Shown: piece after piece, positions 58,401 through 61,400 of the stretch
Layout: each line of letters begins with the position of its first letter
How positions within the stretch are numbered: the stretch's first letter is position 1
NCBI RefSeq assembly: GCF_016026235.1
Contig: NZ_CP065613.1
Origin: Escherichia coli
Lineage (GTDB): Bacteria > Pseudomonadota > Gammaproteobacteria > Enterobacterales > Enterobacteriaceae
DNA: 64,000 nt
Reading direction: 5' to 3' (one strand)
Position numbers: made by a program

Positions 58401-61400
58401 GCAATAAAAATTTTTATTTCTTATGTCAATTGAGCATATTTTAATCGGGAAACATCATGGGGGTTCTGATTACTGGAGAACTCCATTTCTTATATTCCGC
58501 AATTTGCACCGTGAATTTATTTTCAGTCTGGATGGTGCTGCAACTGAGCATGACACGCTGTTACCACGATTCACCGATGATATTCACAATCAGTCATGGG
58601 ATGGTGAAAGGGTCTTCGTTAACCCACCATACAGCGACACTAAAACATTCCTCGTAAAAGCGTCTGAAGCAGATTTAGCGGTATTCCTGATACCGTACCG
58701 ACCCCAAACCATATACTGGCTTAAGCACATCTTCACAAACCCGCTTTGCCATGAAATCCGTATTCTTCATCGTGCAGTTAAATACCTTCCACCAGCAGGG
58801 CATAACAGGCTTACTATTAGGTCACCGTTTCCAAGTGCAGTCGTTGTTTTTAAAAAAGAACCACGTAAGCATGAAATTACACAGATGATTTGCTGTGGTG
58901 ACACATTGCTACCGTTAACCATCATTAACCGTGGTGGACTAAGAGGAAGACCCACCATTTACCCACCTGAGACGCTCGACAGCTTCATAAAACTATACAG
59001 GCAAGGCAAACCCATTAAGTGCATTGCAGATGCTCTCAGAATGCCCCTGAGCACGTCATACAGGATTGCTCAAAGGTTGAGCTAAAATTCTCATAAATAT
59101 GGTCATTTACAAGACAGGTGTTTTAGATATTAAGAAGTATCCCTGTGAACAATAAATGACCAATCAGTAATTATTCTGTGAAATAATTGTTGCAATTTAT
59201 AATCACATCTGTTATAGTTTCTATGGGCTGATAAAAGAACTCAGAACATTAAGAGGTTACAACGTTGGGAGGCGTCAGAGTATTGACGGATTTTCACAGC
59301 CTCTTATTCATTCAAGGCTTTTCCTTTTGCTGTTAATGCTCGCGTAATCGCTCAGGCTTCTGAGTTCCTTTATCAGTCCATCTTCTAATTAATTCACTCC
59401 CTCTGGGGTTGGTCACTATACGTGGTCAGCCCTTTCTTTGTTTTATTTTTAAAAAGGAAAACGTAATGGAAAAATTTCACATGTTTGATGACCGTATTTA
59501 TCAGATGACTAATGGCGTTAAAGCTGCCGACCGTATTATTTACACTGTCATGTTGAATGAACAAAAGTTTTATCACGATAAGGGGCAATATTATACCCCT
59601 TCATATGCTCATCTTGGTCAGTATGCTGGAATCACAAGAACATCCGTGATTGCATGTATGAAACGACTTGAGGCACATGGTTTAATCAAGAAAACTAACG
59701 TTGCAAGCAATCAGTGTGTTATTAAAGTTTATTCACTTGATGAAGTACCGGAAGTTTTAACAGAGCTTACAGCTAAGGAAGCCAGAAAGGCAAAGCTGGA
59801 GTCTAAAGTTACTCAGTCAGTCAAGAAAGATGACCCACTGAGTCAAAATTCTTTACCCACTGAGTCAAAATTTTTTACTCAGTCAGTCAAAATCTTTGAC
59901 ACGTATAATAACAGTAATAACAAGAAAGAACTTATTAATAACAATAAAGAAGATGACTTTGAAGAAGAATCTCTTAAGAAGGGAGCTTCGCTCTGTGATT
60001 CACATGAATGTGATTCTCTTGGTATTGAAGAGGCTATTAAACAATCTGACTTGGATGACCTTGATAAAGAGGCTATTAAACAAGATGAAGTAAACTCTGA
60101 TGTGAATGAAGTTAGTGACCAGCAAGATACACCTTGCCGCCTCGAATCAACTGATGATGAATTACCGGATGTTGACCTTGATGATGAAGAAGACCCTGAA
60201 GAGGAATTGAAACGTGAACAGCGTAAAGCAGAAATTAAAGAAAGATTCAGAAAGGCGAAGCTAAAGAGCAGGATTGATGAACTTGATGACTTTGATGATA
60301 GTGACGATGATTTTACTTTTACACCAAAAAAGAAAACTCACACCGAGCCAAAGAAAGAAAAAGTTAAAGTCAGACGTGTTTATGGTGGAGGAATGTTTTA
60401 ATGAAAACTTATAATGGCGAGAGAAAATACCGTGACTATTTACTCAGACGTTACAGCATTTCTCGTGAAGGTTACTTGATGAAAGATACTCACGGGGAAG
60501 TTTACCGGATTCGACCGAAGAAAGAAGGGAGGGATTATTATTTCGTCGATGGTGTGACAGATTTAAAGATTGACGCTTTGAGGTTTGCAGTGATGTATCA
60601 TTTTGATATCTGGGATTCAGTCCACCAGCTACGATTAAAAGACGGTGACCCCAATAACTTAAAGGCCACCAATATTATCACAAAACGTTAGTTTGTTTTA
60701 CCATCATCAATCGTAATTGTGATTTCATATTTGAAAAGCTTAATGCTGAAATTGAATCGTGTACTTTTGGCGATAATCATTTTTAAAAGCTGATACACCA
60801 GAAGCACCAGAAACACAAAGCAACCTAAGCTTGCGAATCTGTGAGATTCAGCAATTGTTTCAAGAAAGCCCATTAATTCCCCTTATTTATCAAAGGGAAT
60901 GACCTGTATCAGCCCCCTATAAACATAATATCATGTAAATGAGATGTTGACAATATGTTAAATAAATGTTAAGATTGTAGTATGAGCAAGAGATTTAAGG
61001 AGATTTTTGCAATGACTCACACAGTTACGCGCCTTTTGCCAGAGGCATTTGAACGACTGGCAGCAATCAAAGCCAAATACCCTGATATGAAGCACACAGC
61101 GCTTGTTGGAGAGCTTTTAAAAGAGTCGGTAGCCCTGACCCCTTTCGATAACGTTAAGGGCGTTGCAGAGGGTTCTAAGGCCATCAGAATCACAACAGGC
61201 CAACTGGAACTACTCAAAGCACAGTCCGCAGTAGCAGGTTGCTCAATGATTCAGGTGTTAAGCGCGAAGGTTCATCAACTGGCGGATAGATTGGAGGTTT
61301 GATGCTATGTACATTTGATTATCATGCGTTTTATCGCCATAGAGGTCATCTTGTCCGTGAGAATAACGGAACATGGAAAGATTTAACTCGTAATGCTGAA

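What the first reader, a model, noticed from the sequence alone, without database searches (positions are those of the whole stretch)
59466..60401. Replication-initiator-like gene with iterons and an AT-rich tract inside its own coding sequence
Seen in sequence: inside the 311-codon ORF, 59809-59890 holds four repeats of two related types (ttactcagtcagtcaa x2; acccactgagtcaaaatt x2 at 22-bp spacing) sharing an agtcaa core in alternating orientation, followed by an AT-rich run (59891-59945); the protein ends in a strongly acidic, repeat-rich tail. Established knowledge: phage lambda places its origin (iterons plus AT-rich region) within the O initiator gene, and iterons are typical of theta-replicating plasmids. 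Inference: this is the element's origin and initiator; no helicase-loader gene follows, which is atypical for lambdoid modules.
Basis: partly seen in the sequence, partly recalled or inferred. Interest (0 to 1): 0.55.

Follow-up and report, generated by a model that had tools for sequence, protein, structure and literature searches.

The report
Island replication initiator with internal origin
This gene encodes the replication-starter protein of an 11-kb mobile island in the E. coli chromosome and very probably carries the island's replication origin inside its own coding sequence, an arrangement known from phage lambda and RepA_N plasmids but here in an apparently undescribed island that looks like a parasite of Felix O1-type phages.

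Summary
ORF 59466-60401 contains four direct 22-bp-phased repeats (59809-59896), then the most A+T-rich stretch of the gene (59897-59960, GC 23%). The AGTCAA cores all lie on one strand, not in alternating orientation.

The interpretation (initiator plus origin) is supported by comparison, not by experiment.
- The N-terminal 113 aa model as a winged helix. Its best structural and profile match is the RepA N-terminal domain of the Vibrio cholerae satellite PLE, followed by pSK41 RepA and DnaD.
- Eight diverged alleles of this domain were read as DNA. Each has its own set of 3-4 phased repeats at the same place in the gene, followed by an A+T-rich tract.
- The repeats are read in all three frames.
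- One strain lost exactly one 22-bp unit and became a frameshifted pseudogene.

The closest family is RepA_N (PLE RepA type), not lambda O. The missing helicase loader is therefore normal for the family.

The host element is an ~11-kb island inserted in mdtG. Complete copies elsewhere carry a large serine recombinase (this copy is cut by the window end). The island has no ATPase, carries homologues of the Felixounavirus tape-measure and neighbouring tail proteins, and has no GATC sites, as does the 24.8-kb Felixounavirus segment examined. I found no description of it in the papers searched.

The parts
59466..60401 (+). rep gene (311 codons): winged-helix initiator with the putative origin embedded in its middle
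   Evidence: ORF list; PHROGs replication-initiation hits; 149 E. coli genomes carry a homologous C-terminal half, 27 carry this N-terminal half
59466..59804 (+). codes for the N-terminal winged-helix DNA-binding domain (aa 1-113), RepA_N / DnaD-NTD-like fold
59809..59830 (+). iteron 1 (TTACTCAGTCAGTCAAGAAAGA); 22-bp unit
59831..59852 (+). iteron 2 (TGACCCACTGAGTCAAAATTCT); in strain RM9088 one 22-bp unit spanning iterons 2/3 is missing and the gene is frameshifted
59853..59874 (+). iteron 3 (TTACCCACTGAGTCAAAATTTT)
59875..59896 (+). iteron 4 (TTACTCAGTCAGTCAAAATCTT); its 3' part with the next bases forms the best dyad, GTCAAAATCTTTGAC (59886-59900)
59897..59960 (+). A+T-rich, purine-skewed tract (GC 23%), putative DNA-unwinding element; codes for the N/K-rich linker
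   Evidence: an equivalent tract (GC 22-28%) follows the iterons in distant alleles; its length varies by 9-bp units in L004
59919..59931 (+). 13-mer AACAAGAAAGAAC inside the A+T-rich tract, identical in alleles whose iterons differ
   Evidence: exact copies in the window, L020, L013 and L021; read in a different frame in L021
59961..60398 (+). codes for the acidic C-terminal half (net charge -21), predicted disordered except one basic helix (aa 244-268); mosaic among islands; putative replisome-recruiting part
60401..60691 (+). 96-aa ORF overlapping the rep stop (ATGA), conserved in the E. coli islands; function unknown
   Evidence: no PHROG, NCBIfam, Pfam or PADLOC assignment
56970..64000 (.). 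left ~7 kb of the ~11-kb integrative island that this replicon serves, inserted in mdtG; the island runs off the window
   Evidence: homology with the intact island of MRE162 starts at ~56970; mdtG is truncated here as in RM9088; island maps
58423..59085 (+). phage Dam-family N6-adenine methyltransferase gene just upstream of rep
   Evidence: phrog_111 at 1.6e-24; TIGR01712 at 3.7e-10, below its cut-off; PADLOC orphan MTase
63776..64000 (+). start of the island's tape-measure gene (cut by the window end)
   Evidence: translation matches the N-terminus of the L003 TMP; the L003 TMP hits phrog_4036 at 1.3e-80

Best explanation
The gene 59466-60401 encodes the replication initiator of an ~11-kb integrative island, and the island's origin lies inside the gene.

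Anatomy (shown by sequence and models):
- The protein has a folded N-terminal winged-helix domain of the RepA_N / DnaD-NTD type, homologous to the RepA N-terminal domain of the Vibrio cholerae satellite PLE.
- Next comes a disordered linker whose DNA doubles as the origin: four 22-bp-phased iterons (59809-59896), each with a semi-palindromic core around an A/T run, followed by an A+T-rich, purine-skewed tract (59897-59960).
- The rest is a long acidic, mostly disordered C-terminal half.

Proposed mechanism (inferred by analogy with RepA_N plasmids, PLE and lambda):
- After the island's serine recombinase excises the element, Rep dimers occupy the four iterons on one face of the helix (two turns apart).
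- This distorts the DNA and opens the adjacent A+T-rich tract.
- The C-terminal half then brings in a helicase and primase. The island encodes no ATPase, so these must come from the host or, more likely, from an infecting helper phage.

Because the binding domain and its sites are contiguous (~500 bp), they travel together as one specificity cassette between islands.
For: Protein family:
- PHROGs replication-initiation families.
- The family profile hits 4RO3 at E 1.2e-7. 4RO3 is PLE RepA-NTD according to PMC7145576.

The repeats are DNA signals, not peptide repeats:
- They are spaced 22 bp apart, so they fall in frames 1, 2, 0 and 1.
- 4 sites are found against 0.14 expected; 0 of 1000 codon shuffles reach the periodicity.

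Covariation of domain and repeats:
- E. coli alleles A, B and C (35-45% identical N-terminal domains) carry different iterons at the same gene position, nt ~340-430: B has AACCAGAATTTGGTT-type repeats and C has TGACAAAATGTCA-type repeats, at 23-bp spacing.
- Allele A' (88% identical domain) keeps the core as GTCAAGAAACTTGAC.
- The distant relatives L013, L015, L017 and L021 each have 3-4 iterons of their own, followed by a tract of GC 22-28%.
- In phage lambda the iterons sit at nt 349-433 of O; here they sit at nt 344-431.

Other support:
- The 13-mer AACAAGAAAGAAC in the A+T-rich tract is shared by alleles with unrelated iterons, once in a different frame.
- RM9088 lost exactly one 22-bp unit and is annotated as frameshifted.
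- The stretch 59466-~59990 is 99-100% identical among islands whose flanks are 50-98% identical. This matches the NTD/ori module swapping described for PLE (PMC8263062).
- There is no helicase, primase or loader: the other ORFs have no family hits, and the only Walker-A-like string is inside the tape-measure gene.
Against: - There is no experimental evidence of binding or replication for this element.
- Pfam RepA_N (PF06970) and Phage_rep_O did not appear in either Pfam scan; only generic winged-helix families, HTH_36, DUF6945 and DnaD_N did.
- No relative was found on any plasmid in PLSDB, in GenBank phages or in IMG/VR. Nothing therefore shows this Rep sustaining an autonomous replicon.
- In PLE, the nearest characterised relative, the origin is intergenic rather than intragenic.
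- There are no DnaA boxes near the array.
- The A+T-rich tract is only moderately distinct in an island that is 38% GC overall.
- The full-length model rests on a shallow alignment, so 'disordered C-terminal half' is a soft statement.
Confidence: 0.8

Rival explanations
1. It is a true lambda-O-family module, the relic of a lambdoid prophage replication region whose P-like loader gene was lost.
For: - The layout is the same as ori-lambda: iterons at nt 344-431 here against 349-433 in O, followed by an A+T-rich tract.
- PHROGs 'O-like' families match at 4.5e-8 to 1.5e-6.
- An O protein of phage Min27 appears among the structural matches (rank 19).
Against: - No Pfam Phage_rep_O match appeared in either scan, and hhalign of the family profile against lambda O gives probability 0.1%.
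- tblastn against 50,697 phage records finds nothing.
- The gene sits in a conserved 11-kb island with a serine recombinase, not in a lambdoid prophage. The gene order is the same in many strains and in another enterobacterium, so nothing has been lost.
- The better matches are PLE RepA and pSK41 RepA.
Confidence: 0.06
2. The protein is a winged-helix transcription regulator (MarR/SlyA-like). The intragenic repeats are operator sites for autoregulation or a transcriptional roadblock, not an origin.
For: - The weak Pfam and PDB sequence hits are to Crp, MarR and SlyA helix-turn-helix families.
- Initiators of this kind often also autoregulate.
- A terminator-like hairpin on the minus strand overlaps iteron 2.
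Against: - The best structural and profile matches are replication initiators, not regulators.
- Four phased sites plus a conserved A+T-rich tract, kept at the same intragenic place across eight alleles, is origin anatomy.
- A 200-aa acidic disordered extension is not a feature of MarR-type regulators.
- No iteron copy lies in the promoter region upstream of the gene.
- The island has no other candidate origin or initiator.
Confidence: 0.07
3. The repeats are a packaging (pac-type) recognition site inside the gene of a small DNA-recognition protein, as in P22 or SPP1 small-terminase genes. This would let the island be packaged by a helper phage.
For: - The island looks like a phage satellite (tail-gene homologues, serine recombinase) and no packaging function has been identified in it.
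- pac sites inside the small-terminase gene are known (own knowledge).
Against: - There is no terminase-family hit for this protein.
- The fold and profile point to RepA_N-type initiators.
- Iterons followed by an unwinding-type tract are not typical pac anatomy.
Confidence: 0.03
4. The repeats are just a low-complexity, slippage-prone linker with no cis-acting function.
For: - The region is length-variable: a 22-bp deletion in RM9088 and a 9-bp unit expansion in L004.
- The encoded segment is predicted disordered.
Against: - The repeats are read in three frames and are non-triplet.
- This stretch is 99-100% identical in the 25 E. coli genomes that carry it in full.
- The repeats are replaced by different but equally phased sets whenever the DNA-binding domain changes.
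- Each unit has dyad symmetry.
Confidence: 0.03

Closest known systems
RepA of the Vibrio cholerae phage satellite PLE (RepA_N-type initiator; N-terminal domain structure PDB 4RO3; Barth et al. 2019, PMC7145576; Barth et al. 2021, PMC8263062)
   Same: - Neither protein has a helicase or primase domain.
- Both elements are chromosomal islands integrated by a large serine recombinase.
- In both, the N-terminal domain covaries with the iterons while the C-terminal part is shared and mosaic between elements (here; for PLE).
- The iterons are semi-palindromes converging on an A-run, as that paper describes for RepA_N iterons.
   Different: - The PLE origin is in a non-coding region; here it is inside rep.
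- The host is E. coli and other Enterobacteriaceae rather than Vibrio.
- The island is ~11 kb and carries Felixounavirus-like tape-measure and neighbouring tail genes. Whether any other gene is shared with PLE was not tested.
- Dependence on a helper phage is shown for PLE and only inferred here.
RepA_N plasmid replicons of Firmicutes (pSK41 / pTZ2162 RepA, PDB 4PTA / 4PT7; Pfam PF06970)
   Same: - The protein has two parts: a DNA-binding N-terminal domain and a host-specific C-terminal part.
- Iterons are placed centrally inside the rep coding sequence. For the plasmids this rests on my own knowledge of the RepA_N literature (Weaver et al. 2009) and was not checked here.
- No loader gene accompanies rep.
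   Different: - No match to the Pfam RepA_N model.
- The C-terminal half here is acidic and predicted disordered rather than a folded DnaD-like domain.
- The element is an integrated island of a Gram-negative host, not a plasmid; no plasmid relative was found.
Phage lambda O protein and ori-lambda
   Same: - Four iterons with dyad symmetry, spaced ~20-24 bp, lie at the same distance into the initiator gene (nt 349-433 against 344-431) and are followed by an A+T-rich tract.
- An N-terminal winged-helix domain binds them.
- Weak PHROGs 'O-like' hits.
   Different: - No significant sequence relationship.
- No P-type loader gene downstream.
- The C-terminal half is unrelated.
- The context is not a lambdoid prophage.
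DnaD / phage 'replisome organizer' proteins (DnaD N-terminal domain, Pfam PF21984)
   Same: - Borderline Pfam DnaD_N hits (E 0.0012-0.013).
- A 'replisome organizer' appears among the viral structural matches.
   Different: - According to PMC7145576, the DnaD N-terminal domain does not bind DNA.
- No DnaD-like C-terminal domain is detected here.

Membership tests
RepA_N-type initiators (in the structural sense used for PLE RepA) | N-terminal domain with the pSK41 RepA / DnaD-NTD extended winged-helix fold | tested here: met
   [not shown]
RepA_N-type initiators (in the structural sense used for PLE RepA) | Detectable sequence homology to an accepted member | tested here: met
   The 16-sequence profile hits 4RO3 (PLE RepA-NTD) at E 1.2e-7 over 76 positions; the identity of 4RO3 comes from PMC7145576
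RepA_N-type initiators (Pfam PF06970) | Match to the Pfam RepA_N model | tested here: not met
   No PF06970 hit for the protein or for any of the 16 family members scanned. For PLE RepA, PMC7145576 reports no BLASTP similarity and assigns the family on structure.
RepA_N-type initiators | Cognate iterons: direct repeats with inverted arms converging on an A-run | tested here: met
   GTCAAAATCTTTGAC in the window; GTCAAGAAACTTGAC in A'; TGACAAAATGTCA in C; AACCAGAATTTGGTT in B; description of RepA_N iterons
RepA_N-type initiators | Rep binds the iterons, and Rep plus ori suffice or are required for replication | not testable with these tools
   Needs EMSA or footprinting and replication assays
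Lambda O family (Pfam Phage_rep_O) | Sequence membership | tested here: not met
   No Phage_rep_O hit appeared in either Pfam scan; hhalign against lambda O gives probability 0.1%; only weak PHROGs O-like hits
Lambda O family (Pfam Phage_rep_O) | Origin (iterons plus A+T-rich tract) inside the initiator gene | tested here: met
Lambda O family (Pfam Phage_rep_O) | Adjacent helicase-loader gene (P, DnaC or DnaB type) | tested here: not met
   The downstream ORFs are 61-236 aa with no family hits. The only Walker-A-like string in the island lies inside the tape-measure gene.
Iteron plasmids of the Rep_3 / RepE-Pi type | Two-winged-helix Rep_3 initiator; iterons outside the gene; plasmid context | tested here: not met
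   No Rep_3 hit; a single winged-helix domain; no plasmid relative in PLSDB
PLE-type phage satellites | [quoted passage not shown] | tested here: met
   Complete islands L001, L003, L017 and L020. The recombinase end of the window's own copy lies beyond base 64000.
PLE-type phage satellites | Excision, replication and transduction triggered by a specific helper phage | not testable with these tools
   Only indirect hints: tail-gene homologues and a GATC-free composition shared with Felixounavirus
PLE-type phage satellites | Homology to PLE genes other than repA | not tested

The most novel reading that the evidence does not exclude
The replicon belongs to an undescribed family of ~11-kb phage satellites of Enterobacteriaceae that parasitise virulent Felix O1-type myophages, in the way PLE parasitises ICP1.

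On this reading the island:
- integrates with a large serine recombinase (in mdtG, yecE, and between yciI and tonB);
- has purged every GATC site, as its presumed helper has;
- carries its own versions of the helper's tape-measure protein and the adjacent tail protein;
- replicates from an origin hidden inside rep.

Rep's acidic, disordered C-terminal half would recruit the helper's (or the host's) helicase and primase directly. Many relatives of Rep end in an SSB-tail-like acidic stretch tipped by Phe or Trp, which fits this idea. The contiguous NTD-plus-iteron cassette would be swapped between islands to escape origin-targeting counter-defences of the phage.
Probability: 0.4. Interest if true: 0.8.

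Novelty: new member of a known kind. Interest (0 to 1): 0.55.

Why it matters
The arrangement of an origin inside the initiator gene is textbook (lambda O, RepA_N plasmids), so the finding is not new in kind. It has three points of value.

- It identifies the replicon of a mobile island that occurs in roughly 150 of 5,426 complete E. coli genomes and is annotated only as a 'helix-turn-helix domain-containing protein'.
- It links that replicon by homology to PLE RepA, an initiator type that the PLE paper describes as rare in Gram-negative bacteria.
- It offers a natural specificity series for studying how such initiators read their iterons and how they load a helicase without a loader: at least four E. 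coli alleles plus distant ones, each with its own iterons.

If the island is indeed a satellite of Felix O1-type phages, which are used in Salmonella and E. coli typing and biocontrol, its replication module would be the handle for detecting and manipulating it.

Tried and rejected
- Lambda O membership: the Pfam scans showed no Phage_rep_O match and hhalign against lambda O was null. Rejected as family membership, kept as a functional analogy.
- Pfam RepA_N: no hit.
- NCBIfam: nothing useful for Rep.
- Relatives of Rep in other collections: none in GenBank phages (tblastn), PLSDB plasmids or IMG/VR viral contigs.
- DnaA boxes: none near the array.
- GATC or SeqA-type control at the origin: there are no GATC sites anywhere in the island.
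- Extra iteron copies upstream of rep for autoregulation: none.
- Promoter scan: one weak site at 59190-59218, fewer sites than in shuffles, so uninformative.
- Function of the 96-aa ORF coupled to rep and of the 106-, 142-, 107-, 236- and 68-aa ORFs: no PHROGs, NCBIfam, Pfam or PADLOC assignment. The 236-aa protein has no phage match.
- Folded C-terminal domain: the full-length AF2 model gives pLDDT below 50 for aa 115-243 and for the tail.
- Literature: seven searches looked for a description of this island family or of a Felixounavirus satellite and found none; an eighth search was for RepA_N origins. The library does not cover most subscription journals.
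Full report
**1. What is in the sequence**

The window is E. coli chromosome (mdoH, yceK, msyB). The mdtG gene is truncated near 56950. From about 56970 a foreign segment of 38% GC begins and runs off the window end. Its genes, in order:
- a small serine recombinase / invertase (57527-58078; phrog_125 at 2.5e-57);
- a phage Dam-family methyltransferase (58423-59085);
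- the ORF of the finding (59466-60401);
- a 96-aa ORF overlapping its stop codon (60401-60691);
- several small ORFs with no family assignment;
- the start of a tape-measure gene at 63776.

In register they are four tandem 22-bp units starting at 59809, 59831, 59853 and 59875. The degenerate 16-mer TTACYCASTSAGTCAA finds exactly these four sites in 64 kb, against 0.14 expected. The period-22 self-match (51 of 66 positions) is never approached by 1000 codon shuffles, whose maximum is 41.

What does have dyad symmetry is each unit: read in another register, the units are 15-bp semi-palindromes GTCAA-N5-TTKAC at 59820, 59842, 59864 and 59886.

The units fall in frames 1, 2, 0 and 1 of the ORF. 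The same DNA is therefore translated into different peptides (TQSVK, PLSQNS, PTESKF), and the repeat is a DNA signal rather than a protein repeat.

Immediately downstream lies the lowest-GC part of the gene. The segment 59897-59960 is 23% GC, against 36.8% for the gene, and is 64% purine on the top strand.

The C-terminal 146 aa carry a net charge of -21, although the last ~25 aa are basic.

**2. What the protein is**

- PHROGs places it in replication-initiation families (7.7e-11, 5.6e-9; an 'O-like' family at 4.5e-8).
- Pfam gives only generic winged-helix hits and a borderline DnaD_N hit.
- A profile search of 1.84 billion representative proteins shows a narrow family: 16 clusters below 1e-10 and 197 below 1e-3.
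- An AF2 model of aa 1-113, built from 16 family members, is confident (pLDDT 86).
- Among predicted viral structures the matches are replication initiators, a putative O protein and a replisome organizer.
- The family profile also hits 4RO3 by sequence (E 1.2e-7).
- According to Barth et al. 2019 (PMC7145576), 4RO3 is the N-terminal domain of RepA of the V. cholerae phage satellite PLE. That paper assigned it to the RepA_N family on structural grounds.
- The full-length model shows no fold after residue 117 except one basic helix at aa 244-268 (shallow alignment).

**3. Comparative test of the origin hypothesis**

About 149 of 5,426 complete E. coli genomes carry the C-terminal half of this gene, but only 27 carry this N-terminal half. 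Fetching the others showed three main alleles of the N-terminal domain (A, B, C), 35-45% identical to one another.

Each allele has its own phased repeats at the same place in the gene (nt ~340-430), followed by an A+T-rich tract:
- Allele B: CCAACCAGAATTTGGTTAC repeated at 23 bp (dyad AACCA-N5-TGGTT).
- Allele C: AGTGACAAAATGTCA repeated at 23 bp (dyad TGACA-AAA-TGTCA).
- Allele A' (domain 88% identical to A): keeps the core but as GTCAAGAAACTTGAC, a 6-3-6 dyad.

Four distant relatives were read as DNA, 24-35% identical in the N-terminal domain. They come from other enterobacterial or metagenomic contigs. Each again has three or four iterons of its own at 22-23 bp, for example GATGGGTCGCAGCGACCTACCCA repeated four times in L017. 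In each a tract of 22-28% GC follows.

The exact 13-mer AACAAGAAAGAAC recurs inside that tract in alleles whose iterons are unrelated. In one of them it is read in a different frame.

Two natural variants show how the array changes. Strain RM9088 has lost exactly one 22-bp unit and its gene is annotated as frameshifted. Strain 2013C-4830 has an in-frame expansion of a 9-bp unit in the A+T-rich tract.

The block 59466-~59990 (domain, iterons and A+T-rich tract) is 99-100% identical among islands whose flanking sequence is 50-98% identical. It therefore moves as a cassette. The same covariation of RepA_N domain and origin, with a conserved, cross-clustering C-terminus, is documented for PLEs (PMC8263062).

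For comparison, in phage lambda the four iterons occupy nt 349-433 of O. Here they occupy nt 344-431.

**4. Mechanism**

- Shown: a winged-helix initiator-type domain; four phased dyad-symmetric repeats specific to that domain's allele; an adjacent A+T-rich tract; and no helicase, primase or other ATPase gene in the island.
- Inferred: Rep dimers bind the iterons, the A+T-rich tract melts, and the acidic C-terminal half recruits a helicase and primase from the host or a helper phage.

As a lead, 16 of 97 family members of at least 190 aa end in Phe or Trp, against ~5% expected (p = 4e-5). The closest distant relatives end in acidic tips such as ...DFDDVPF...GDDAPF and ...EADVAF. From memory, these resemble the E. 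coli SSB C-terminal tip ...DFDDDIPF.

The E. coli alleles instead have an internal LDDFDDSDDDF motif followed by a basic tail. For the window's protein this idea is therefore weak.

**5. Rivals**

- True lambda O membership fails the sequence tests and the context test.
- A pure transcription-regulator reading does not explain the conserved origin-like anatomy or the long acidic extension.
- A pac-site reading has no terminase support.
- Meaningless low complexity is contradicted by the frame behaviour, the near-perfect identity across the 25 genomes that carry the cassette in full, and the allele-specific replacement of the repeats.

**6. Context**

Complete copies of the island are ~11.2 kb (MRE162, between yciI and tonB; KY173 and ERR9385504, in yecE). 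They end with a tape-measure gene, a 256-aa 'baseplate / Dit-like' gene and a ~507-aa large serine recombinase. A distant version with the same architecture sits in mdtG of another enterobacterium.

The 256-aa protein is 74% identical to a Felixounavirus protein encoded directly after that phage's tape-measure gene. The island's tape-measure protein is 30% identical to the phage's over 478 aa.

Four E. coli copies of the island and the distant L017 island contain no GATC at all (0 observed against 26-47 expected). Their chromosomal flanks are normal. The 24.8-kb Felixounavirus segment examined also has none (0 against 80 expected).

These features suggest a satellite of Felix O1-type virulent phages, analogous to PLE and ICP1. 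I found no paper describing it, but the library is incomplete.

**7. Verdict**

As a replicon it is a new member of a known kind. The element it serves may be a new satellite family.

Noticed in passing
window 56970-64000; L003 6300-17500; L001 13003-24198; L017 5100-16300; L020 6600-18250; L019 (Felixounavirus Bas63, 24.8 kb): The island has no GATC site at all: 0 observed against 26-47 expected in four E. coli copies and in the distant L017 island. The flanking chromosome and the other 4-bp palindromes are normal. A 24.8-kb stretch of a Felixounavirus genome is also GATC-free (0 against 80 expected) and has the same GC content (39%). The island nevertheless carries a phage Dam-family methyltransferase gene.
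   Followed up: partly
window 63776-64000 (start of the tape-measure gene); L003 12845-15911; L019 9752-12777: The island carries homologues of two adjacent Felixounavirus tail genes in the same order. Its tape-measure protein is 30% identical over 478 aa and its 17-aa C-terminal end is 71% identical. The next gene (PGAP 'baseplate', Pfam Dit_like) is 74% identical. This points to Felix O1-type phages as helpers of a satellite.
   Followed up: partly
L002 (strain RM9088) 11927-12873, aligned to window 59833-59854: Exactly one 22-bp iteron unit is missing, which frameshifts rep (annotated as a pseudogene). The same island copy is also hit by IS21 and IS3 elements and its recombinase is truncated, so it is a decaying copy.
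   Followed up: yes
L004 (strain 2013C-4830) rep nt ~440-470, aligned to window 59905-59925: The A+T-rich tract is 18 bp longer through an extra two copies of the 9-bp unit CAGTAATAA (peptide NNSNNSNNSNN). The length of the putative unwinding element is therefore variable, and changes stay in frame.
   Followed up: no
window 56950-56970; L001, L020 (yecE); L003 (yciI/tonB); L017 (mdtG of another enterobacterium); L011 (near lafU, remnant): The same island family uses several integration sites, and two of them interrupt genes (mdtG, yecE). In NGF1/NC101 only a remnant is left: rep fused next to a fragment of the baseplate gene.
   Followed up: partly
window 57389-58078: A small serine recombinase of the DNA-invertase type (phrog_125 at 2.5e-57) sits at the left end of the island in addition to the large serine recombinase at the right end. 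No invertible segment was looked for. Some island copies (KY173) lack it.
   Followed up: no
L013 8933-9184; L014 1165-1416: In a distant relative the gene right after rep encodes an 83-aa T5orf172 / MUG113 nuclease-type domain. In the PLE-ICP1 system the phage's anti-satellite nuclease Odn is a fusion of a RepA_N domain with a T5orf172 domain (PMC8263062). One E. coli island (L009) has an HNH endonuclease gene in place of the methyltransferase gene upstream of rep.
   Followed up: no
window 59994-60021: Just past the right edge of the conserved cassette lies TGTGATTCACATGAATGTGATTC. It contains a 5-1-5 palindrome (TGTGAtTCACA) and a direct repeat of TGTGATTC 15 bp apart (peptide CDSHECDS). 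It is present in alleles A and B and absent in C, and lies close to the A/B recombination boundary. Its meaning is unknown.
   Followed up: no
C-termini of Rep homologues P0127, P0129, P0138, P0147, P0150 and others: There is an excess of C-terminal Phe or Trp preceded by acidic residues (16 of 97, p = 4e-5), for example ...PEFDFDDVPF. This resembles the SSB C-terminal tip and is a possible recruitment motif. The window's own protein ends ...RRVYGGGMF after a basic stretch.
   Followed up: partly
L015 1-1260; L021 15277-17899: More distant rep-bearing elements also carry a TMP_3 tape-measure gene. L015 additionally has a tail-assembly-chaperone gene (Phage_TAC_15) and an AbiTii/HNH pair, and it is not GATC-depleted (72 against 91 expected). 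The rep family therefore travels with tail-module genes in more than one kind of element.
   Followed up: no
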